A DNA stretch of 38,773 bases. Origin: a virus (taxonomy: Duplodnaviria; Heunggongvirae; Uroviricota; Caudoviricetes). This document shows positions 1,459-38,424 of this stretch, one piece after another. The first letter of the stretch is position 1. Every line of letters starts with the position of its first letter. Below the pieces are notes generated by a model. That model worked only from the letters and a program-made list of their open reading frames with translations. It was not told where the DNA came from and did no database searches. The stretch lies in IMG/VR virus record IMGVR_UViG_2671180896_000005, positions 1 through 38,773 of that record; one strand, written 5' to 3'. The position numbers and the translations under genes are program-made.

Positions 1459-2622
1459 TTACACATCATTAGTACCTTCCTTATTTTTTGACTGGGACAA
1501 ATTTGGGACCGATGGGTTCAGAATCGAGTCTATTTGCCGTGCGTGTTCGGTAAGGTGATTAGGCGCGAGGTGAGCATATCGACGAACCATTTCGATAGAC
1601 TCCCATCCACCCATTTCCTGTAACACTGACAACGGGACTCCGGCTTGAACCAGCCAACTTGCCCAGGTGTGTCTCAAGTCGTGAAATCTGAAATCATCAA
1701 TACCAGCTCGTCTCAGCGCCGCTTTCCAGGCTGTGTTTGCGTCATACCGCATCTTCCTTACTGTTGGCGCTTTCGTTCCGTCTGGTTTGGTACAGCTTTC
1801 CTTATACACAAATACCCAACGGTGATGATTCCCTATTTGTTTTTTCAATACGCGACATGCAGTATCATTCAGCGCAACGCCAATTGCGCGGTTTGATTTA
1901 CTCTCTTCCGGGTTTATCCATGCCACCCGGCGCTGCATGTCTATTTGTTGCCATTCAAGGTTGATGATGTTTGAGCGTCTTAAACCTGTTGCCAGTGCAA
2001 ATTCAACAACAGACTTTAATGGCTCCGGACATTCATCAATCAGCCTTTGTGCTTCATGAGGCTCCAGCCAGCGGATCCGTTTATTCTTTGGTTGAGGCAC
2101 TTTAATAATTGGTGCCTTATCCAGCATTTTCCATTCACGCTCTGCGGCTCTTAGCAGGGCCTTTATAAATGAAAGATGCGTTGCCTTCGTTGCAACGGAC
2201 GCTGGTTTTGGCGTGTATTCTGGAACAGGTTTCCCTTTTTTTCTGCATGCTTCTGCCCTGAGTTTCCAGTTTTCCTCATGACGCCGGTTCGTCATTTTCT
2301 GAATTGCTGAATAAATTTTTGATTCAGTAATGTCTCTTAATTGCATCCCTGCGAAATGTTGAAGCCAGAATCCGATCCGGCTTTTGTCATCGTCCAGTGA
2401 TTTTTTATGTGCTTTCTCTTCAAGCCACCTGACACACGCTTCCTCGAACGTCATATCAGGTATTTCACCAAGTTTGCTGACCCGCCATGCTTCAGCCTTT
2501 AGCTTGTCATGGAGCTCTGTCGCCTGCCTTTTGTCCTTTGTTCCAAGAGACTGTTTAAATCTTTTACCGTTCGGCAATGTGAAACTGGCGTACCATATTT
2601 CACTTCTGCGGAAGAGTGACAT
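1459..2622 (-). CDS. int: phage tyrosine integrase
   Basis: 387-aa ORF with lambda-type integrase N-terminus ([33 protein letters not shown]) and C-terminal catalytic region ([10 protein letters not shown]...VRRYAHL); ATG at 2622 preceded by GAGGA. Confidence 0.95.
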
Positions 2623-6359: not shown

Positions 6360-6520
6360 AAGCGGTCATCGCAACGGTGAATCAGGTGGTTGCCGTATCG
6401 TTGTGTTGTTGCGATGAAATTATTTAAAACTATAGTTGTTTTATCGTCAACAACAAAAGTTGTTTTATTGGTTGTTTTAGATGTAACTGGTTGTATTTAG
6501 GATGGATTTATTTTGTGACT
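6360..6520. promoter_or_regulatory. candidate OL/PL region: cluster of GTTGTT/AACAAC operator-like repeats
   Basis: AT-rich intergenic DNA with repeated TGGTTGT(T) and AACAAC motifs and a 9-bp inverted repeat CATCGCAAC (6367-6375) / GTTGCGATG (6408-6416); same half-site as the palindrome between cI and cro. Confidence 0.35.
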
Positions 6521-6590
6521 TGCATCGCATAGCGATAACTGAAGGGAGATTGTGGTGGTTTTTTGAACGGTATACGTGATGAGGGGAGGG

Positions 6591-6620
6591 GATAAAAGAA
6601 AACCCGGCACGGTGGCCGGG
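6591..6620 (-). terminator. rho-independent terminator ending the cI-kinase-phosphatase transcription unit
   Basis: On the minus strand: 6-bp GC stem (CCCGGC/GCCGGG, 6603-6608/6615-6620) followed by TTTTCTTTTATC (rc of 6591-6602); lies 4 nt past the phosphatase stop codon. Confidence 0.55.
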
Positions 6621-6624
6621 AAGT

Positions 6625-7368
6625 TTACAAATACTTTACATTTACCGCTATAAGAGAATAATCGTCAGTCGGGCCTTTTGTCTCTATTCTTCGCATTAGG
6701 CTGGAGGCAAACCTTGATGCGGTTGACAATGTACGGTAAGAAAATCGTGGGCGTTGCTCCCAAAAGGTATGCGCGCCATCAGACATGATGAATAGAGATA
6801 GAACACCATCGTCAAGAGGAAGTTCATCTTTATCAATATTTATGACTTGATGTTGAAGAGGGATCTTGGCAGCAAGTGCAGTTGTAATAATATTTTTACC
6901 TTTTGCATTTTTGAGCTGTCGAGCTGTATAAATACCGCTATCTATCAACATTTGATGTTGAGTATGATCTGTTGTTAATTGGATTAGCTTATTTCCATTT
7001 TTTAAATAAACACGACAGTCACCTACATGTATAATTGTTAGACCTTGATTGTGAAGTAGGCACATTGTTAAAGTTGTAGCAGCAGATGCTAATTCTTTAT
7101 CAACTGACGAAAGAGATGCCACCTTTTCTTGTAGGGTCTTAAGTAAGGATAAGACATTGTCTTCATGAGTGAAGCTGTCTTTAATACTATACAAATGATT
7201 TATTACTGCTGCAGATGCTTCTTTTCCTCCTTTATAACCACCAACCCCATCAGCTATAGCCATAAGATAACCATTTGGTGTTTGAAGTGGATAAAGCACG
7301 CTATCTTGATTTTCCCTGCCATTATGTTTTGGTACAGAAAATATGGATGATGAGAGTATGCTAATCAT
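6625..7368 (-). CDS. PP2C-family (PPM) Ser/Thr protein phosphatase
   Basis: 247-aa ORF with PPM motifs: ENQDS, ADGVGG (metal-binding DGxGG), HVGDCR, LTTDH, SDGA; AT-rich; start overlaps kinase stop (ATGA). Confidence 0.85.
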   Translation of the reverse strand: MISILSSSIFSVPKHNGRENQDSVLYPLQTPNGYLMAIADGVGGYKGGKEASAAVINHLYSIKDSFTHEDNVLSLLKTLQEKVASLSSVDKELASAATTLTMCLLHNQGLTIIHVGDCRVYLKNGNKLIQLTTDHTQHQMLIDSGIYTARQLKNAKGKNIITTALAAKIPLQHQVINIDKDELPLDDGVLSLFIMSDGAHTFWEQRPRFSYRTLSTASRFASSLMRRIETKGPTDDYSLIAVNVKYL

Positions 7369-8090
7369 AAGCGTTTCAACTCCAATTCCTCAAAGATCTG
7401 CTCTACGGTCAGGAATCTTTTGTTAAGTTGTCTATGCGTACATTTGTTTATTATATCATCAAAACCATCAATATTTAATTCTTCAATTAAAATACCAATT
7501 GAATATATATCTGATTGTTTTGAATATCCGTTGAGGAAAACGTTGTAATCAAAGTATTTAGGAGTAGCGGGGTATTGGCCAATTTGTGTTAATAGCTGTG
7601 TATTGGCATCTGGTGACACATTTTTTGCAAGGCCGAAGTCAGATAACTTATAAATTCCATCTTCAAATTTTAGTACATTTAGTGGTTTTATATCCCGATG
7701 AAGATATCCTTTCTTATGAATCCATCCGACGGCATTTAGTACCATTTTTACAATAGAGATTTTTTCAGCCTTTGTAAGAGTTCCACTTTTTATTTCTTCT
7801 TCAAGATTTGTTTCTGCTAGTTCCATTACGAACCAAGGCTGAGCATTCTGTAAGTGGCATATGAATATTTGGACAATATTAGTATGCAGGCATTCAGTTT
7901 GATATCTTACTTCTCGTTCAAATCTGGTAAAGAGTTCAGGATCTGTTGCATCAGGTCGTAAAATTTTTCTGGCATATAGACCACAAATTTTTCTTTGTGA
8001 GTTATATAACCTTATTTTTTCTACAAGGCCAAAACCGCCAGAACCAATTACTTCTAGGGGGTCTATTAGGTAATTCCCACGTTCTTCCAT
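7365..8090 (-). CDS. Hanks-type (eukaryotic-like) Ser/Thr protein kinase, compact single-domain
   Basis: 241-aa ORF with glycine loop IGSGGFGLV, catalytic-loop HRDIKPLN, DFG motif (SDFGLAK) and a subdomain-IX-like DIYSIG; RBS GGAT before the ATG; markedly AT-rich versus flanking phage genes. Confidence 0.9.
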   Translation of the reverse strand: MEERGNYLIDPLEVIGSGGFGLVEKIRLYNSQRKICGLYARKILRPDATDPELFTRFEREVRYQTECLHTNIVQIFICHLQNAQPWFVMELAETNLEEEIKSGTLTKAEKISIVKMVLNAVGWIHKKGYLHRDIKPLNVLKFEDGIYKLSDFGLAKNVSPDANTQLLTQIGQYPATPKYFDYNVFLNGYSKQSDIYSIGILIEELNIDGFDDIINKCTHRQLNKRFLTVEQIFEELELKRL

Positions 8091-8185
8091 TGTTCATCCT
8101 TTTAAGTTAGACAAAAGGAAAAATATAATGCAATGTTATCGATGCTTTTTTGAAGCCAAAGTTAACTTGTTGAATTTATGTCGAA

Positions 8186-8875
8186 TTATCCATGCTTCCT
8201 ATACGTCTGCGGCATGCTCCCGATGACTTTCCCGAAGATGAATACCCGGTTCATCTCGTCTTTCTCGATTGGGTCCCACGGTGAGTAGCTCTTGTTATCA
8301 GAGATAACCAGCAGTTTATCCTTCATCATTTGCAGGCGCTTTACATGGGCTGTGTCGTCGTACAGAAACGCATAGATACCATCACCGTCGAAAGATTTAA
8401 CAGTGATATCAACGAACAGCAGATCACCTGGTTCGATCGTTCCTGACATGCTGTCACCGCGTACGTTAATGATACGGATATTTTCCGCCTTCCTGCCATC
8501 GAACATGTGACGAGCATCGTCAAACGAATACTCAACCGAACGTAGAACTTCTACAAACTCACGGTTGATGACTCCCGGCCCGGCACTCACTTCGATATCA
8601 AGAACGTCAATCTTAAAGTATTTGGAATGGCTGACAGTTGTTTGTATTGGTTGCACTGTACTGTCTGACATATTTCCAACGCCAGAAGATAACCATTCTG
8701 CGCGCACACCCAAAGCGTTCGCGATCTCCACGATTTTAGTTGTTTGGTTAGCTTTCCCTGTTTCGATTTTCTGAATAGCTGCTTGGCTAACCCCGACCAA
8801 ATCCCCAAGCGCCTTTTGTGTAAGGCCTCGCGCTAATCTGGCTTCTTTAAGTCTTTCTGAGAGTGTTGTTTTCAT
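8186..8875 (-). CDS. cI: CI-like prophage repressor (HTH + S24 LexA-like peptidase domain)
   Basis: N-terminal HTH (MKTTLSERLKEARLARGLTQKALGDLVGVSQAAIQKIETGK) and C-terminal S24 autopeptidase motifs (GDSMSG ... FGKVIG). ATG at 8875 preferred over the track start at 8941, which would run into the operator region. Confidence 0.85.
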   Translation of the reverse strand: MKTTLSERLKEARLARGLTQKALGDLVGVSQAAIQKIETGKANQTTKIVEIANALGVRAEWLSSGVGNMSDSTVQPIQTTVSHSKYFKIDVLDIEVSAGPGVINREFVEVLRSVEYSFDDARHMFDGRKAENIRIINVRGDSMSGTIEPGDLLFVDITVKSFDGDGIYAFLYDDTAHVKRLQMMKDKLLVISDNKSYSPWDPIEKDEMNRVFIFGKVIGSMPQTYRKHG

Positions 8876-8916
8876 AGTCCAAATGTACAACCAAGGTTTT
8901 ATTTCATCAAACGAAA

Positions 8917-8941
8917 ATGGTTGTTGACTAAAAACAACCAT
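8917..8941. promoter_or_regulatory. operator palindrome in the cI-cro intergenic region
   Basis: Perfect 9-bp inverted repeat ATGGTTGTT (8917-8925) / AACAACCAT (8933-8941) with 7-bp spacer, overlapping the candidate PR -35. Confidence 0.55.
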
Positions 8942-29250: not shown

Positions 29251-31083
29251 ATGGCTGAATTTGAGCTTAAGGCGTTGATCACCGGTGTCGACAGGCTTTC
29301 TCCCGCGCTGTCGAAAATGCAAAAGAAAATCCGGGGATTTAAACGCCAGGCGGAAGAGGCGTCACAGGGTGGGCTGGCGCTTGGTGGCGGACTGGCAGCG
29401 GGTCTGACGCTTTCCCTGAAATCTTATGCCGATCAGGAAAACGCCGCCACCGGGCTGAAAGTCGCCATGATGGATGCGAACGGCGAGGTCGGAAAGAGCT
29501 TTCAGGACATCAATAAACTGGCTATTGGCCTGGGTAACCAGCTACCCGGTACAACGGCTGATTTCCAGAACATGATGCAGATGCTGGTGCGTCAGGGGAT
29601 CCCGGCAGAAAATATTCTTGGCGGTGTGGGTAAAGCGACAGCTTATCTTGCGGTACAACTGAAAAAAACACCGGAAGCGGCTGCTGAGTTTGCTGCAAAG
29701 ATGCAGGATGCTACCGGAACGGCGTCAGAAGACATGATGGGGCTGTTCGACACTATCCAGAAGGCGTTTTATCTGGGCGTTGACGATACCAACATGTTGT
29801 CCTTCTTCACTAAAACCAGTTCTGTTCTGAAGATGGTGAACAAGGACGGTCTTCAGGCTGCACAGAGCCTTGCCCCCATCAGCGTCATGATGGATCAGAT
29901 GGGGATGAACGGGGAGTCGGCAGGTAATGCCCTGCGAAAAGTTATCCAGTCCGGATTAAGCGTTAAGAAAATCAGGGACGTCAATAAAGTTATGGCCCGT
30001 CAGAAACTCGGGGTACAGCTCGATTTTACTGACGGCAAAGGAAGTTTTGGCGGTCTTGATAACATGTTTAAGCAACTGGCAAAGCTGCGAAAACTTACCG
30101 ACGTTAAGCGAACAGGTGTACTTAAGGCAATATTTGGTGATGATGCCGAAACCCTTCAGGTGGTCAATGCGCTGATCGATAAAGGAAAGGATGGTTACGA
30201 TCAGATCCAGCAAAAGATGAATAAACAGGCCAGCCTGAATAAACGTGTTCAGGCACAGCTTGGTACGCTGTCCAACCTGTGGGAGGCAATGACGGGGACC
30301 GCAACTAACGGCCTTGCGGCTATTGGCGGCGCATTTTCTGGTGACGCCAAAAATATCACGCAATGGCTGGGGGAGTTGGGGGAAAAATTCACGAAGTTTG
30401 CGGATGAAAATCCCCGGGTTATTCGCGGCGTCGTCAGGCTTGCTGCCGGTCTTGCGATTCTGAAACTGGGATTGATGGGCGTGGGCAGTGCCATCAGCAT
30501 TGTCAGCAGGATCATGTCGATGACGCCGATTGGCATGATTGCGACGGCGATAGCCCTGGCTGCGGGATTAATTATCACTAACTGGGATGTTGTCGGACCT
30601 TATTTCAAGAAGCTCTGGGAAACCATTGGTCCTTATTTTGAGGCTGGCTGGGAACTCCTTAAGAAAGTTTTTGCCTGGTCGCCGATGGGGATGGTGATCA
30701 ATAACTGGGGGCCGGTTGTTAAGTGGTTTCAGGATATGTGGGACAAGCTGAAGCCAATTATTGAGTGGTTTACCGACAGTTCCGGTGACACGGTCGATGC
30801 CATTAACTCTGCGCAGTGGGGCGCGGGTGCTTATGATGCTTATGGGACGGGAATACCGGCACGGGGATACACTCCTTATCCGGCGGTGGATCCGGCTCAG
30901 GCAAACAACGCCTCCGATGCCACAGGCTCGAATCCCTTCATGATTAATAAAGCTACCGCGCCAAAAGTTGATGGTGAGATCAAGGTATCATTTATAAATA
31001 TGCCACCAGGTATGCGGGTTACGGAAACACGCTCCAGTGGCATTGATATAAATCACGATGTTGGCTATACCCGATTTTGGTAG
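29251..31083 (+). CDS. tail tape measure protein
   Basis: 610-aa ORF with alpha-helical Ala/Gly/Leu-rich composition and Gly-rich hydrophobic segments; position after the chaperone. Confidence 0.9.
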   Translation: MAEFELKALITGVDRLSPALSKMQKKIRGFKRQAEEASQGGLALGGGLAAGLTLSLKSYADQENAATGLKVAMMDANGEVGKSFQDINKLAIGLGNQLPGTTADFQNMMQMLVRQGIPAENILGGVGKATAYLAVQLKKTPEAAAEFAAKMQDATGTASEDMMGLFDTIQKAFYLGVDDTNMLSFFTKTSSVLKMVNKDGLQAAQSLAPISVMMDQMGMNGESAGNALRKVIQSGLSVKKIRDVNKVMARQKLGVQLDFTDGKGSFGGLDNMFKQLAKLRKLTDVKRTGVLKAIFGDDAETLQVVNALIDKGKDGYDQIQQKMNKQASLNKRVQAQLGTLSNLWEAMTGTATNGLAAIGGAFSGDAKNITQWLGELGEKFTKFADENPRVIRGVVRLAAGLAILKLGLMGVGSAISIVSRIMSMTPIGMIATAIALAAGLIITNWDVVGPYFKKLWETIGPYFEAGWELLKKVFAWSPMGMVINNWGPVVKWFQDMWDKLKPIIEWFTDSSGDTVDAINSAQWGAGAYDAYGTGIPARGYTPYPAVDPAQANNASDATGSNPFMINKATAPKVDGEIKVSFINMPPGMRVTETRSSGIDINHDVGYTRFW

Positions 31084-31111
31084 CCAGGATTCCCCTCACA
31101 TGTATTGCTGG

Positions 31112-31139
31112 TTGTAAGTCATAAATAGAGTGATAGAAT
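31112..31139 (+). promoter_or_regulatory. candidate sigma70 promoter for the tail-cluster moron
   Basis: TTGTAA (31112-31117), 16-bp spacer, TG-n-TAGAAT extended -10 (31131-31139), about 35 bp upstream of the ATG at 31175. Confidence 0.4.
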
Positions 31140-31174
31140 TAATGCACATTTAGAAAAATGTTAATAGGCGAAAA

Positions 31175-31705
31175 ATGAAAGGCTATATCACAGCAAGTGT
31201 AATTCTTGGAGCAGCGGCTATTTTTTCATCTCTCATAATCTCTGGCAACATCTCCTTTAAAGATGAACATATTATTCAGTTATCTGGAGGAGCCATAAAA
31301 CTTGGTGATGTTTATAAAGAAAATAAATTAATAAGTGCAAAGATTATTTTTCCAGATAATCAGGGTGAACAGATTCTTGTTGTCGACGGCAATCCTGAAA
31401 ACTTTAAGGAGGATTTTCAGGAGAAATTAAATAAAGTAATAAAAACTTTAAATGCGTCAAAGAAAAAAGATGAAGAGAAAGTTAGCCTGGATAATTTAAG
31501 TGTTATTGAAGAGTCTAAACTAGAGCTCGTTTCTGCGGTGCGTTACTCTGCTCAGTATGTTCCTATGTTTACTCTGACGCTGGACAAAAAAGAAATTACC
31601 ATGCCTAAAAATACGGTAATATTTCCATTTGCCAGCGATGAAACAGCTAAGTATTTAAATGAACAACAGCAAAAGTATAAAGATTCGTTGTTTCTGACTC
31701 GCTAA
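31175..31705 (+). CDS. AT-rich moron ORF: N-terminally membrane-anchored/secreted protein of unknown function
   Basis: 176-aa ORF, visibly AT-rich against GC-rich tail genes; N-terminal hydrophobic helix (ITASVILGAAAIFSSLIISG), Lys/Glu-rich remainder; own promoter-like and terminator elements. Confidence 0.65.
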   Translation: MKGYITASVILGAAAIFSSLIISGNISFKDEHIIQLSGGAIKLGDVYKENKLISAKIIFPDNQGEQILVVDGNPENFKEDFQEKLNKVIKTLNASKKKDEEKVSLDNLSVIEESKLELVSAVRYSAQYVPMFTLTLDKKEITMPKNTVIFPFASDETAKYLNEQQQKYKDSLFLTR

Positions 31706-31725
31706 TTAATAAAATTCATTACAAG

Positions 31726-31750
31726 GCCACCTTCTAATAGGTGGCTTTTT
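31726..31750 (+). terminator. rho-independent terminator after the moron ORF
   Basis: GCCACCT-TCTAAT-AGGTGGC hairpin followed by TTTTTAATTTT, 20 nt past the stop codon. Confidence 0.6.
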
Positions 31751-31766
31751 AATTTTCGGAGTATAT

Positions 31767-33095
31767 ATGACGTGGAAAGACAGACTTCAGGACGCGTCAT
31801 TTCGCGGTGTGCCGTTTAAGGTTGAAGAAGAAAGTGCGGGAACCGGTCGTCGTGTGGAAACGCACGAATACCCGAACCGCGACAAACCCTATACCGAAGA
31901 CCTGGGGAAAATCACTTTCCGCCCGTCCATCACGGCTTATGTGGTGGGAGATGACTGCTTTGACCAGCGCGATCGCCTGATTGACGCGCTGAATAAACCC
32001 GGTCCCGGCACGCTTGTCCATCCGACTTACGGTGAGCTGAAAGTCTGTGTTGACGGAGAGGTTCGGGTCAGCACATCGAAGAGTGAAGGGCGTATTGTCC
32101 GCTTTGACCTGAAGTTTGTCGAAGCGGGAGAACTCTCTTACCCCACATCAGGTGCGGCGACGGCGCAGACGCTGATGTCATCCTGTTCTGCACTGGATGA
32201 CTGCATCAGTGACAGCTTCAGCGGTTTCAGTATCGATGGCGTGGCGGATTTTGTGCAGAACGACGTCGTCGGTAATGCCAGCACAATGCTTGGGTATGTT
32301 TCTGATGCGATGAAAGTGGTGGATTCTGCCGTATCGGATGCTGCCAAGCTGTTGCAGGGGGATATCTCGGTACTTCTGCCGCCACCATCGTCAGGCAAAA
32401 ATTTCGTTGAGCAGGTGCAGAAAATGTGGCGTACCGGGAAACGCCTTTATGGTAACGCCAGCGACCTGGTCACCATGATCAAAACGCTTTCCGGTGTCAG
32501 CCTCGGCAGCGATCTGCAACCGCGCGGCGTCTGGAAAACGGACAGTAAAACCACCGCCACGGCGACGCAGCAGCGTAATGTGGTTGCCAGCACCCTTCGT
32601 ACGACCGCAATCAGTGAAGCGGCGTATGCCGTCACCCGATTGCCTGCGCCAACAACTTCCGCGGTGATGCAGAATTCCGCAGTGGGGCAGGCAACAACAC
32701 CTGCGCAGAGCACTGGCTGGCCTTCTGTCACGCATCCGGCACTGAACAATGCACCGGCGGTGAAAAACACGGTTGATCTGCCGACGTGGGAAGAACTGAC
32801 TGACATTCGCGACACACTGAATACGGCAATTGATAAGGAGTTGTCCCGTACAACCAGTGATGCGCTGTTTCTGGCGCTGCGCCGGGTGAAAGCAGATCTG
32901 AATGCGGATATCAACACGCGCCTTGAACAGTCTGCACGGATCATTCAGCGCACACCGGATGAGGTTTTACCCGCGCTGGTGCTGGCGGCGACCTGGTTTG
33001 ATAACGCGGCGCGTGACGCGGACATTATCCGGCGTAATGCCATTACGCATCCCGGCTTTGTGCCGGTGATCCCTCTGAAGGTGCCAGTGCAATGA
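31767..33095 (+). CDS. Mu gpN-like DNA circulation protein
   Basis: 442-aa ORF with N-terminus MTWKDRLQDASFRGVPFKVEEESAGTGRRVETHEYPNRD typical of Mu N-family proteins; follows the tape-measure gene. Confidence 0.8.
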   Translation: MTWKDRLQDASFRGVPFKVEEESAGTGRRVETHEYPNRDKPYTEDLGKITFRPSITAYVVGDDCFDQRDRLIDALNKPGPGTLVHPTYGELKVCVDGEVRVSTSKSEGRIVRFDLKFVEAGELSYPTSGAATAQTLMSSCSALDDCISDSFSGFSIDGVADFVQNDVVGNASTMLGYVSDAMKVVDSAVSDAAKLLQGDISVLLPPPSSGKNFVEQVQKMWRTGKRLYGNASDLVTMIKTLSGVSLGSDLQPRGVWKTDSKTTATATQQRNVVASTLRTTAISEAAYAVTRLPAPTTSAVMQNSAVGQATTPAQSTGWPSVTHPALNNAPAVKNTVDLPTWEELTDIRDTLNTAIDKELSRTTSDALFLALRRVKADLNADINTRLEQSARIIQRTPDEVLPALVLAATWFDNAARDADIIRRNAITHPGFVPVIPLKVPVQ

Positions 33096-37412: not shown

Positions 37413-38015
37413 ATGAATAACGCAGAATTAAACAGTGAATTAATTGCCACTATGGCAGGAGAAATTACTGTTTATAACTTTGATGTCATGAGTCGGGAAT
37501 ATATTTCAGCTTCAACTGAATATCTTGCTATTGGTGTCGGCATTCCGGCATATTCCTGTTTAGATGCCCCAGGCGCATACAAAGCTGGTTATGCAATCTG
37601 CCGATCTGCAGATTTTAACTCATGGGAATATGTGCCAGACCATCGCGGTGAAATCGTCTTTAGCACCGAAACAGGAGAATCAAAAGAAATCACAGTTCCG
37701 GGTGATTACCCTGATAATACAACCACTATCGCCCCGTTAACGCCATACGATAAATGGGATGGTGAGAAATGGGTGGCGGATACCGAAGCACAGCATAGCG
37801 CCGCAGTAGATGCAGCAGAAGCACAGCGCCAGTCACTGATTGATGCTGCAATGGCTTCCATTAGTCTGATTCAGCTGAAATTACAGGCCGGACGGAAGTT
37901 GACGCAGGCAGAAACCACCCGACTTAACGCCGTGTTGGATTACATTGACGCGGTGACGGCAACAGATACCAGCACAGCGCCGGATGTCATCTGGCCTGAA
38001 CTGCCGGAGGCGTAG
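37413..38015 (+). CDS. tail fibre assembly protein (Tfa)
   Basis: 200-aa ORF after the fibre gene with GAGGG RBS; conserved Tfa C-terminus (...LNAVLDYIDAVTATDTSTAPDVIWPELPEA). Confidence 0.8.
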   Translation: MNNAELNSELIATMAGEITVYNFDVMSREYISASTEYLAIGVGIPAYSCLDAPGAYKAGYAICRSADFNSWEYVPDHRGEIVFSTETGESKEITVPGDYPDNTTTIAPLTPYDKWDGEKWVADTEAQHSAAVDAAEAQRQSLIDAAMASISLIQLKLQAGRKLTQAETTRLNAVLDYIDAVTATDTSTAPDVIWPELPEA

Positions 38016-38424
38016 GCCATTCAATATCTGGCGCACCGGAAGTATCGATCAGCTCCAGTGCGTCCAGATAATCCAGCCACAAATTATATTGCGCCAGTTC
38101 CTCACCTTTCAGACGACCAATAGCGGCTTTACCGGGCCATTGTTTACTGTTCATGTATTCGTTGGCCTGATTAAGCAATAATTGCCTTTCTGATTCTGCC
38201 TGTTGAATAAGTTCTTCATATGATGGTGGAGGTATTAGTGCCCATGTGGGTAATCCATTTTTTCCTGCAACACGAATTTTGTCATCTGGGGGCGTATTGA
38301 TTGCAAATTCATTATAAACATCATCACTGACAGCCAGAGCATCATCTGGCCATGAATTTGCATTAATGTAATCATCCTTAAGCGCAGGATTCACAAAAAT
38401 GTTTAAAGATGGACTATAAAACAT
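37987..38424 (-). CDS. alternative tail fibre assembly protein (Tfa')
   Basis: 145-aa ORF convergent on Tfa, overlapping its 3' end; shares the Tfa C-terminal motif (...YNLWLDYLDALELIDTSGAPDIEWPTPP). Confidence 0.8.
   Translation of the reverse strand: MFYSPSLNIFVNPALKDDYINANSWPDDALAVSDDVYNEFAINTPPDDKIRVAGKNGLPTWALIPPPSYEELIQQAESERQLLLNQANEYMNSKQWPGKAAIGRLKGEELAQYNLWLDYLDALELIDTSGAPDIEWPTPPAVQAR

What the first reader, a model, noticed from the sequence alone, without database searches (positions are those of the whole stretch)
31084..31750. Self-contained AT-rich moron (promoter, ORF, terminator) inserted between the tape-measure and baseplate genes
Seen in sequence: a 176-aa ORF with a single N-terminal hydrophobic helix and a Lys/Glu-rich body sits between the tape-measure gene and the Mu N-like gene. 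It is far more AT-rich than its GC-rich neighbours, is preceded by a sigma70-like promoter (TTGTAA, 16 bp, TGaTAGAAT) and followed by a strong terminator. Inference: an autonomously expressed lysogenic-conversion gene, likely a membrane-anchored periplasmic protein; superinfection exclusion or another envelope function is plausible. I do not recognise the protein family.
Basis: partly seen in the sequence, partly recalled or inferred. Interest (0 to 1): 0.7.

Follow-up and report, generated by a model that had tools for sequence, protein, structure and literature searches.

The report
Prophage tail-slot moron, exported protein
An AT-rich accessory gene sits in a swappable cargo slot between two tail genes of an E. 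coli prophage and encodes a membrane-anchored periplasmic protein of an uncharacterised family that travels on many kinds of mobile DNA; its function, possibly blocking rival phages, is untested.

Summary
A 176-aa ORF (31175-31705, +) lies in a 683-bp AT-rich block (GC 0.34 against 0.51-0.56) between the tape-measure gene and the Mu gpN-like gene. It has a sigma70-like site upstream and a strong hairpin terminator downstream.

Comparative data show a genuine moron in a cargo hotspot.
- Phages SfI, SfII, SfV and SfIV lack it.
- Of 848 E. coli genomes with this junction, 175 carry this gene, about 84 a second unrelated ORF, about 74 an antisense OB-fold gene and about 24 a bPH_1 gene. Sampled rows suggest most of the rest are empty.
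- Leclercia prophages keep a 53%-identical orthologue in the same slot.
- A Lelliottia genome keeps only this cassette plus 41 tape-measure codons.
- dN/dS is 0.04-0.17.

The protein has no Pfam, NCBIfam, PADLOC or PDB relative. A confident model (pLDDT 90) has no solved fold match. Charge distribution and remote homology to lipoproteins of Pseudomonas phages (one described as lytic; hhalign 95.6%, E 1.3e-8) place the domain in the periplasm. Distant relatives are cargo in integrative islands, a P2-like prophage and a probable Vibrio integron cassette.

Function is inferred, not shown. Envelope-level superinfection exclusion is my leading guess, at roughly 35-40%.

The parts
29251..31083 (+). 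Tail tape-measure gene (left border of the slot)
   Evidence: PF10145 PhageMin_Tail, E 1.1e-26. About 95-96% identical over the aligned flanking DNA to SfI, SfII and SfV.
31084..31766 (+). AT-rich cargo block occupying the tape-measure/gpN slot (net insertion about 620 bp relative to the 63-bp empty spacer)
   Evidence: GC 0.337 against flanks of 0.51-0.56. Absent from SfI, SfII, SfV and SfIV. Present with both flanks in 175 of 5426 E. coli genomes.
31112..31139 (+). Sigma70-like promoter candidate: -35 TTGTAA (31112-31117), 16-nt spacer, extended -10 TG (31131-31132) and TAGAAT (31134-31139)
   Evidence: Consensus scan gives 9 of 12 matches plus TG. -35-like and -10-like elements sit at the same positions in most diverged orthologous cassettes, but not all. 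The scanner finds no site upstream of the Leclercia copy. Not verified experimentally.
31166..31168 (+). Weak Shine-Dalgarno-like AGG, 7-9 nt before the ATG
   Evidence: Read directly from the sequence. GAG or AGAG sits at the same place in orthologues.
31175..31705 (+). 176-aa ORF, member of PHROG 5485 (unknown function)
   Evidence: E 3.8e-108, full length. Purifying selection, dN/dS 0.04-0.17. AlphaFold2 model with mean pLDDT 90.3.
31178..31243 (+). N-terminal hydrophobic helix (residues 2-23): signal-anchor or export signal, N-in/C-out
   Evidence: Helix 2-23 in the model. Kyte-Doolittle peak. Family median uncharged run is 19.5 residues; the N-flank is net positive in 44 of 50 and the C-flank net zero or negative in 44 of 50. 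No Cys, so no lipobox.
31262..31702 (+). Predicted periplasmic alpha/beta domain (residues about 30-176): beta-hairpin 33-42, then beta-beta-alpha-beta-beta-alpha. Carries the motifs G39-x3-L43-G44-x2-Y47-x-E49 and Y124-x-S-x3-P130-x-F132-x-L134
   Evidence: Model. Conserved columns. Remote homology to phage lipoproteins across this region.
31723..31757 (+). Rho-independent terminator hairpin (10-bp stem 31723-31748) with T-run; a resident feature of the slot
   Evidence: -17.3 kcal/mol, z -4.8. An equivalent hairpin occupies the same position in empty SfII sites and after other cargos.
31758..33095 (+). GGAG ribosome-binding site (31758-31761) and Mu gpN-like DNA-circularisation gene (31767-33095): right border of the slot
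   Evidence: PF07157 DNA_circ_N, E 6.4e-34. The sequence ...CGGAGT.TATATG is shared by occupied and empty sites.
16482..17171 (+). Q antiterminator of the same prophage (context: explains tolerance of a terminator inside the late tail operon)
   Evidence: PF06323 Phage_antiter_Q, E 9.6e-95. Read-through by Q-modified polymerase is established lambdoid biology (my own knowledge).

Best explanation
The block is a moron: horizontally acquired accessory cargo in a recombination hotspot between the tape-measure gene and the Mu gpN-like gene of an SfV-type prophage (lambdoid regulation, Mu-type contractile tail).

Expression (inferred): in the lysogen it is probably transcribed from its own sigma70-type promoter and stopped by the hairpin that is resident in the slot. 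During lytic growth, Q-antiterminated late transcription would read through it.

Product: a 176-aa protein inserted in the inner membrane by an N-terminal signal-anchor helix (N-in, C-out). This places an alpha/beta domain of about 145 aa, with no solved structural relative, in the periplasm.

Family: it occurs on mobile DNA in every context examined. These are this tail slot, a P2-like prophage, integrase-bounded islands and a probable Vibrio integron cassette, plus remote lipoprotein relatives in large Pseudomonas phages, one described as lytic.

Most likely role (inferred, not shown): an envelope-level barrier in phage-phage competition, that is, superinfection exclusion. It would interfere in the periplasm with receptor access or with tail-tip or tape-measure-mediated genome delivery by incoming phages, by the logic of HK97 gp15, P22 SieA or T5 Llp.

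My estimates: moron or cargo status about 0.9; periplasmic topology about 0.85; the exclusion mechanism about 0.35-0.4.
For: Cargo status:
- Absent from SfI, SfII, SfV and SfIV.
- GC 0.34 against 0.51-0.56.
- Slot survey of 5426 E. coli genomes: the junction is in 848, this cargo in 175, a phrog_8976 ORF in about 84, an antisense PF12869 OB-fold gene in about 74 and bPH_1 in about 24. Sampled rows suggest most of the rest are empty.
- All cargos are AT-rich and each precedes a hairpin and the gpN ribosome-binding site.

Autonomy and host-side retention:
- A Lelliottia genome keeps only 41 tape-measure codons, the upstream region, an intact ORF and the hairpin, between icd and a host gene.
- The antisense OB-fold cargo shows that slot genes need not use the late promoter.

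Real, selected protein:
- dN/dS 0.04-0.17.
- Orthologue at 53% identity in the same slot of Leclercia modules, where the sheath is 75% and gpN 68% identical.
- Model pLDDT 90.3.

Topology:
- Positive-inside statistics.
- Lipobox-bearing remote homologues, hhalign 95.6%, E 1.3e-8; Foldseek E 6.8e-6.

Link to phage competition:
- One relative sits next to the portal gene of a P2-like prophage. In P2, the cos-proximal region next to portal gene gpQ is a validated anti-phage hotspot (PMC9122126).
- Other relatives sit in islands with Mrr-type or AAA_15 genes.
- Another sits in a probable integron cassette.
- Remote relatives occur in Pseudomonas phages, one of which (ventosus) is called lytic (PMC8537276). 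A lytic phage has little use for host-fitness genes.
- Three of the four slot cargos are exported proteins.
- Precedent: HK97 gp15, a tail-operon moron beside the tape-measure gene, is an inner-membrane exclusion protein (PMC3594210).
Against: - No expression data exist. The promoter match is no more than chance would give in this region, and the scanner does not recover one in Leclercia.
- There is no sequence or fold similarity to any known exclusion or defence protein: PADLOC has no hit, the BFVD search returned only the uncharacterised lipoprotein, and the PDB searches returned nothing.
- Guilt by association rests on fewer than ten distant contexts, and hotspots and integrons also carry non-defence cargo.
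- Retention of the gene in a decayed prophage fits any host-beneficial function equally well.
- No deposited phage genome carries the gene, so it has never been linked to a phenotype.
Confidence: 0.45

Rival explanations
1. A host-fitness lysogenic-conversion factor unrelated to phages. The periplasmic protein would alter envelope properties such as stress tolerance, serum resistance or adhesion, as lambda Bor and Lom do.
For: - Exported envelope protein on a prophage.
- The gene is retained intact, with low dN/dS in comparisons to the prophage copies, after the prophage decayed in Lelliottia.
- It is found in E. coli from humans, animals, soil and water.
- The same prophage carries other envelope cargo, an outer-membrane beta-barrel gene.
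Against: - Remote homologues occur as lipoproteins in Pseudomonas phages of about 95 kb, one described as lytic, which gain nothing from long-term host fitness.
- No similarity to Bor, Lom or any named envelope factor.
- There is no obvious enrichment in a particular pathotype among the listed strains, though this was not tested statistically.
Confidence: 0.2
2. An infection-cycle accessory acting on the producing phage's own lysis or release. Examples would be an antiholin-like periplasmic sensor (compare T4 RI, an N-terminal membrane-tethered periplasmic protein), or a factor that stops progeny from adsorbing to debris.
For: - It has the same orientation as the late operon, so it would be co-transcribed under Q antitermination.
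- Homologues occur in Pseudomonas phages, one described as lytic.
- The hydrophobic helix is rich in Gly, Ala, Ser and Thr: 55% here, family median 44%. That composition is reminiscent of releasable signal-anchor domains (my own knowledge).
Against: - It is not next to the lysis genes, which lie around 17481-18261.
- Most closely related, viable phages lack it.
- It survives alone in a genome with no phage left.
- It also occurs as an integron cassette and in islands without lysis genes.
Confidence: 0.1
3. An orphan immunity protein against periplasm-acting toxins such as colicins, type VI effectors or tailocins, carried as mobile cargo.
For: It is a small periplasmic protein, encoded as a single gene, that travels on prophages, islands and integron cassettes. 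No enzymatic motif is evident: the invariant residues are G44 and Y124.
Against: No toxin or effector gene is adjacent in any context examined. There is no similarity to known immunity families in Pfam or the PDB. Homologues in Pseudomonas phages, one described as lytic, are hard to explain this way.
Confidence: 0.08
4. A tail assembly or virion component specific to this lineage of Mu-type tails.
For: It lies between two tail genes, on the same strand, and has stayed at that position over the divergence between E. coli and Leclercia modules.
Against: - Absent from about 79% of E. coli junctions and from SfI, SfII, SfV and SfIV, which make virions.
- Replaced by unrelated genes, one of them antisense.
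- Deviant GC.
- Predicted to be exported to the periplasm, whereas tails assemble in the cytoplasm.
- A relic copy exists without any tail genes.
Confidence: 0.03

Closest known systems
HK97 gp15 moron (superinfection exclusion protein; Cumby et al. 2012, summarised in PMC3594210)
   Same: It is a compositionally deviant add-on inside a tail operon, directly beside the tape-measure gene, with its own promoter and terminator. It encodes an inner-membrane protein expressed from the prophage that blocks genome entry.
   Different: gp15 lies upstream of the tape-measure gene in a siphovirus. It is described as a small protein related to YebO and is unrelated to this protein in sequence. Its function is demonstrated, whereas here function is inferred only.
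P2 and P4 cos-proximal hotspots of anti-phage systems (Rousset et al. 2022, PMC9122126)
   Same: A fixed position between conserved phage genes holds many alternative, horizontally exchanged cargos. One distant family member sits next to the portal gene of a P2-like prophage.
   Different: The slot here is inside the tail operon of Mu-type tails. It holds single small genes, mostly exported proteins, rather than multi-gene systems. None of its four cargos has a shown defence function.
Phage lipoproteins T5 Llp and phi80/N15 Cor (receptor-masking exclusion proteins; my own knowledge)
   Same: They are phage-encoded exported envelope proteins. The remote relatives of this family in Pseudomonas phages are lipoproteins with a lipobox.
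   Different: The viral structure search returned only the uncharacterised ventosus lipoprotein, with no annotated exclusion protein among significant hits. The E. coli protein has no Cys and so is not a lipoprotein.
Lambda lom and bor (prophage-expressed envelope morons in late regions; PMC3594210 and my own knowledge)
   Same: They are morons within or near late genes that encode envelope proteins expressed in lysogens.
   Different: Lom is an outer-membrane beta-barrel and Bor a small lipoprotein. Neither resembles this protein, and both are host-virulence functions rather than exclusion.
PHROG 5485 (and the truncated PHROG 34391)
   Same: Full-length match, E 3.8e-108. This is the family itself.
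   Different: The PHROG has no annotated function. The wider family described here (63 representatives down to about 23% identity, plus lipoprotein relatives) goes beyond it.

Membership tests
Moron (as defined in PMC3594210, after Juhala et al. 2000) | Extra DNA relative to closely related phages | tested here: met
   SfI, SfII, SfV and SfIV have the two flanking genes adjacent. Only 175 of 848 E. coli junctions carry it.
Moron (as defined in PMC3594210, after Juhala et al. 2000) | [quoted passage not shown] | tested here: met
   GC 0.337 against 0.513 and 0.561; GC3 0.29 against 0.56 and 0.60. The same holds in Leclercia.
Moron (as defined in PMC3594210, after Juhala et al. 2000) | Own promoter | tested here: inconclusive
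   There is a consensus match with an extended -10 at 31112-31139, but the number of such sites equals the chance expectation. Similar elements are positionally conserved in most orthologues but not all. The scanner finds none in Leclercia.
Moron (as defined in PMC3594210, after Juhala et al. 2000) | Own terminator | tested here: met
   Hairpin 31723-31748 with T-run, -17.3 kcal/mol, z -4.8. An equivalent hairpin also exists in empty sites, so it belongs to the slot.
Moron (as defined in PMC3594210, after Juhala et al. 2000) | Expression from the repressed prophage | not testable with these tools
   No transcript data are available. The only indirect hint is that an intact cassette was retained in a decayed prophage.
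Superinfection-exclusion protein | Located in the cell envelope | tested here: met
   This is a prediction only: transmembrane-length helix and positive-inside bias, plus lipoprotein remote homologues.
Superinfection-exclusion protein | Homology to a characterised exclusion family (gp15/YebO, SieA, Imm, Sp, Llp, Cor, Ltp) | tested here: not met
   No Pfam or PHROG functional hit. The viral structure library returns only an uncharacterised lipoprotein.
Superinfection-exclusion protein | Blocks adsorption or DNA entry of other phages | not testable with these tools
   Requires plating, adsorption and injection assays.
Known anti-phage defence systems (PADLOC-DB 2.0) | HMM match to a defence-system component | tested here: not met
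   No family matches the query. Only 2 isolated weak hits appear among the 50 members.
Bacterial lipoprotein | Lipobox with an invariant Cys at the end of the signal peptide | tested here: not met
   The protein has no Cys. 33 of 50 family members have none. Only the remote relatives in Pseudomonas phages have L-T/S-G/A-C.
Mu-type tail or baseplate structural proteins | Conserved presence and order in related tail modules | tested here: not met
   Absent in most related modules and replaced by unrelated cargos.
PHROG 5485 | Full-length profile match | tested here: met
   E 3.8e-108, residues 1-176 against profile positions 1-176.

The most novel reading that the evidence does not exclude
The ORF is the E. 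coli representative of a new, widely mobile family of periplasmic anti-phage (superinfection-exclusion) proteins with no solved fold relative. The family would be used by temperate phages, by large Pseudomonas phages (as lipoproteins), by integrative islands and by integron cassettes. The tape-measure/gpN junction of Mu-type tails would then be a previously undescribed hotspot dedicated largely to envelope-acting cargo.
Probability: 0.3. Interest if true: 0.65.

Novelty: new member of a known kind. Interest (0 to 1): 0.45.

Why it matters
Morons in tail operons are a known kind of element, so the anatomy is ordinary. The useful results are three.

1. This position is a four-way (at least) cargo hotspot, present in about 16% of complete E. 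coli genomes.
2. The cargo studied here belongs to an uncharacterised protein family with a confident model that has no solved fold relative. Every context examined is mobile DNA: prophages, islands, a probable integron cassette and large Pseudomonas phages.
3. A decayed prophage kept only this gene, which points to a benefit for the host.

Together these make a cheap, well-defined experimental target. A single 176-aa gene, present in the standard strain ETEC H10407, can be tested for phage exclusion. If positive, it would define a new exclusion family and flag three further slot cargos for testing.

Tried and rejected
Sequence libraries:
- Pfam, NCBIfam, PADLOC and PDB sequences gave nothing for the protein or for 50 family members.

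Structure searches:
- Foldseek against the PDB gave a best E of 0.11.
- The AlphaFold database library was unavailable.

Nuclease idea:
- I rejected it because the invariant residues are G44 and Y124, not an acidic catalytic set, and the domain is extracytoplasmic.
- The SNIPE membrane nuclease paper describes the opposite topology and a GIY-YIG domain.

Retrieval of more loci:
- Pattern-based retrieval with diverse alignments failed.
- The viral-contig scan returned almost only identical E. coli copies.

Other leads that led nowhere:
- Invertible-segment idea for the serine recombinase beside distant homologues: no convincing flanking inverted repeats.
- The 180-aa upstream neighbour in L009 is not a paralogue.
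- Two wrong 144-aa candidates for the ventosus lipoprotein were excluded.
- Rfam gave only sub-threshold leader-like hits on the terminator hairpin.

Literature:
- No paper mentions WP_000679479.
- The Sf-phage, Hf4s, Tab and hotspot papers do not describe this slot or family.
Full report
**What is in the sequence**

The window is a prophage.
- It has an integrase (1459-2622, minus strand) next to an Aldedh-family host gene.
- It has RecT and YqaJ recombination genes, a CI-like repressor, and lambda O and P replication genes.
- It has NinB, RusA, a Q antiterminator and a holin.
- It has a Mu-type contractile tail with sheath, tube, tape measure, gpN-like and gpP-like genes.

Over the tail region it is about 95-96% identical to the Shigella serotype-converting phages SfI, SfII and SfV.

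The finding itself is exactly as described.
- The ORF is 31175-31705 (+) and encodes 176 aa.
- It has a single hydrophobic N-terminal stretch and a body rich in Lys and Glu, with no Cys.
- It lies in a 683-bp block of GC 0.337. The flanking tape-measure gene (PF10145) has GC 0.513 and the gpN-like gene (PF07157) has GC 0.561.
- An ORF this long does not arise by chance in this composition: 0 of 2000 shuffles reach it, and the longest is 129 aa.
- The promoter-like site (TTGTAA, 16 nt, TG-n-TAGAAT, 31112-31139) is present. Such matches are as frequent as chance in this 5-kb region, 4 found against 5.0 +/- 2.0 expected.
- The hairpin at 31723-31748 with its T-run is strong: -17.3 kcal/mol, z -4.8.
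- No Rfam family matches significantly.

**It is an insertion, and the site is a cargo hotspot**

In SfI, SfII, SfV and SfIV the tape-measure stop codon is followed by a short spacer carrying a hairpin, and then by the gpN-like gene.

I joined the last 300 bp of the tape-measure gene to the first 300 bp of the gpN-like gene and searched 5426 complete E. coli genomes. The junction is present in 848 of them. The span in each record shows discrete states, which I then counted directly.

| Slot state | Genomes |
|---|---|
| This cargo, with both flanks | 175 |
| Unrelated 164-170-aa ORF with a signal peptide (phrog_8976, as in phage SKA5) | about 84 |
| 148-aa PF12869 OB-fold protein with an N-terminal anchor, on the opposite strand | about 74 |
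| 125-aa bPH_1 protein | about 24 |
| Remainder (empty 63-bp spacer in the sampled rows) | about 490 |

- This cargo occurs in 179 genomes in all, so it is essentially always in this slot.
- All the cargos are AT-rich, GC 0.31-0.37 against flanks of 0.51-0.55.
- Each ends with a hairpin and T-run just before the conserved gpN ribosome-binding site.
- An equivalent hairpin occupies the same place in empty sites. The terminator is therefore a resident feature of the slot, not something the cargo brought.
- The prophage's Q antiterminator explains why a terminator inside the late operon is tolerated. Read-through is established lambdoid biology and I did not test it here.
- Flank identity to the query falls into a separate band for each cargo type. 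This suggests each cargo is inherited with its own lineage of the tail module rather than inserted repeatedly.

**The gene is old in this slot, selected, and kept when the phage is lost**

Homologues at 52-58% identity occur in Leclercia and Lelliottia.
- In Leclercia adecarboxylata, Leclercia pneumoniae and a metagenome contig, the orthologue sits in the same slot of a related module.
- In the Leclercia adecarboxylata module (L004) the sheath is 75% identical and gpN 68%, and the tape-measure C-terminus is conserved.
- The orthologue is still AT-rich there.
- dN/dS is 0.04-0.17 wherever dS is not saturated.

In one Lelliottia amnigena genome the gene lies between icd and a host glutamine-amidotransferase gene.
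- Immediately upstream are the last 41 codons of a tape-measure gene (63% identical to the Leclercia one, E 2e-12).
- Downstream the hairpin is kept.
- No other tail gene lies within 6 kb on either side.
- So a prophage decayed and only this cassette stayed intact.
- The upstream regions of five diverged cassettes share -35-like and -10-like elements at equivalent positions, though imperfectly. The scanner does not call a promoter in Leclercia.

**The protein**

- No Pfam, NCBIfam, PADLOC or PDB-sequence relative exists. The only library match is PHROG 5485, which has unknown function.
- An exhaustive HMMER search found 63 representatives, mostly 170-180 aa, down to about 23% identity.
- They share the N-terminal helix and two motifs: G-x-V-K/R-L-G-x-V/I-Y-x-E and Y-x-S-E-x-x-P-x-F-x-L-T-L.
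- With this alignment AlphaFold2 gives a confident model, mean pLDDT 90.3. It has helix 2-23, a beta-hairpin at 33-42, and then beta-beta-alpha-beta-beta-alpha.
- The only significant structural match is an uncharacterised 144-aa protein of Pseudomonas phage ventosus: Foldseek E 6.8e-6, TM 0.52 and 0.61.

I located that gene in the ventosus genome.
- Its product starts MKRLLFLGITALLLTGC, a lipobox.
- It has homologues in three other Pseudomonas phages of about 95 kb.
- A profile of the four matches the family profile at 95.6% probability, E 1.3e-8, over 123 columns.
- Ventosus is described as lytic (PMC8537276).

Lipoproteins are exported. In the family, the uncharged N-terminal run has transmembrane length (median 19.5 residues). 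The N-flank is net positive in 44 of 50 members, and the following 15 residues are net neutral or negative in 44 of 50. The globular domain is therefore periplasmic. The helix is most likely an uncleaved signal anchor, but I cannot exclude cleavage.

**Where else the family lives**

Distant members (23-30% identity) are found in four kinds of place.
- Small integrative islands of marine Pseudomonas and Halopseudomonas. These sit beside integrases, a serine recombinase of about 189 aa, an Mrr-type endonuclease gene or an AAA_15 ATPase gene.
- Two genes after the portal gene of a P2-like Vibrio fluvialis prophage. In P2, the region next to the portal gene is a validated anti-phage hotspot (PMC9122126). 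I did not verify that the two positions are equivalent.
- An array of small same-strand ORFs in a Vibrio. There the gene is followed by an imperfect palindrome of attC type, so it is probably an integron cassette. The resemblance to Vibrio attC repeats rests on my memory of their consensus.
- Short contigs of V. cholerae, V. parahaemolyticus and V. vulnificus, whose context I did not examine.

AT-richness relative to the surroundings holds in prophage and island contexts, but not in the integron or in the phage ventosus genome. It therefore marks foreign cargo rather than a property of the family.

**How it most likely works**

What is shown:
- The block is accessory cargo in a hotspot.
- Its product is under purifying selection.
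- It is predicted with good support to be a periplasmic, membrane-tethered protein.
- All family contexts I examined are on mobile DNA.

What is inferred:
- It is expressed from its own promoter in lysogens.
- Its job is at the envelope.

I favour superinfection exclusion, at about 35-40%, for these reasons.
- Relatives occur in Pseudomonas phages, one described as lytic, which argues against a pure host-fitness role.
- Relatives occupy positions known or suspected to hold anti-phage cargo.
- Three of the four slot cargos are exported proteins.
- The founding moron, HK97 gp15, is a membrane exclusion protein encoded beside a tape-measure gene (PMC3594210).

Against this: there is no similarity to any known exclusion or defence protein, no expression data, and only a small number of contexts. 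The rivals are a host envelope-fitness factor, a lysis or release accessory, an orphan immunity protein and a tail component. They are scored in the report sections. The tail-component reading is close to excluded.

**Novelty and verdict**

The kind of element is well known: a moron in a phage late operon within a variable hotspot. I therefore class this as a new member of a known kind.

I found no description in the searched literature of the following:
- the four-state tape-measure/gpN hotspot;
- the breadth and mobility of this protein family;
- its link to phage lipoproteins;
- the relic that kept only this gene.

Interest is moderate. A specialist would not be surprised by a tail-operon moron. 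But the family is common, has a confident model with no solved relative, and is testable with one small gene in a standard strain.

Noticed in passing
window 6400-8200: A second AT-rich island (GC 0.32-0.40) holds a PP2C-type phosphatase (6625-7368, minus strand) and a Ser/Thr protein kinase (7365-8090, minus strand). It lies directly downstream of the CI-like repressor at 8186-8941. It is reminiscent of prophage kinase exclusion modules such as 933W Stk (my own knowledge).
   Followed up: partly
window 12024-12773 (-) and 13590-14633 (-): Two further low-GC cargo genes lie on the opposite strand between the replication genes and the NinB/Q region. One is an outer-membrane beta-barrel protein (PF13505, with Opacity and OmpA-like hits). 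The other is a BD-FAE/Abhydrolase_3 esterase.
   Followed up: partly
L015 633-1079 (-), L016 776-1153, L017 700-1194 (E. coli a15, 1332KP, PK8241): Three other cargos occupy the same tape-measure/gpN slot in other E. coli. They are an antisense PF12869 OB-fold protein with an N-terminal anchor, a cytoplasmic bPH_1 protein, and a signal-peptide protein of phrog_8976. None has a known function.
   Followed up: partly
L012 2491-3864 (and L013): A distant family member is followed 31 bp later by a PF12869 tRNA_anti-like OB-fold protein. That is the same family as one of the alternative E. coli slot cargos, so two 'slot cargo' families are neighbours in an unrelated island.
   Followed up: no
L009 4634-5203, L012 1692-2270, L014 4935-5501: A serine recombinase of about 189 aa (PF00239) lies within one or two genes of the distant homologue in three different islands. 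I found no convincing flanking inverted repeats that would indicate an invertible segment.
   Followed up: partly
L004 8013-9808 (also L005, L006, L022): Leclercia-type modules carry two extra genes (503-507 aa and 94 aa, no Pfam match) between the gpN-like and gpP-like genes. The window lacks them, so this is possibly another variable position in the tail module.
   Followed up: no
window 29251-31083 vs L004 4147-5931: The tape-measure protein is mosaic. It is only 36% identical overall between E. coli and Leclercia, but the C-terminal 200 residues or so, next to the slot, are highly conserved.
   Followed up: no
L107 5386-6016 and 7384-7964: In the Vibrio cassette array, a non-coding segment of about 600 bp is duplicated at 88-90% identity. 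One copy lies immediately upstream of a 232-aa ORF and the other upstream of the family homologue.
   Followed up: no
L114 (E. coli CX04 'plasmid unnamed3', NZ_CP081716.1, 37,667 bp circular): A circular record annotated as a plasmid is a copy of this phage genome with many genes marked frameshifted. The cargo ORF is truncated to 104 aa there. This is probably an excised phage genome with assembly errors.
   Followed up: partly
window 37413-38015 (+) and 37987-38424 (-): Two tail-fibre assembly genes (PF02413) face each other at the right end of the window. That is the arrangement expected of an invertible host-range segment, but I did not look for the invertase or the repeats.
   Followed up: no
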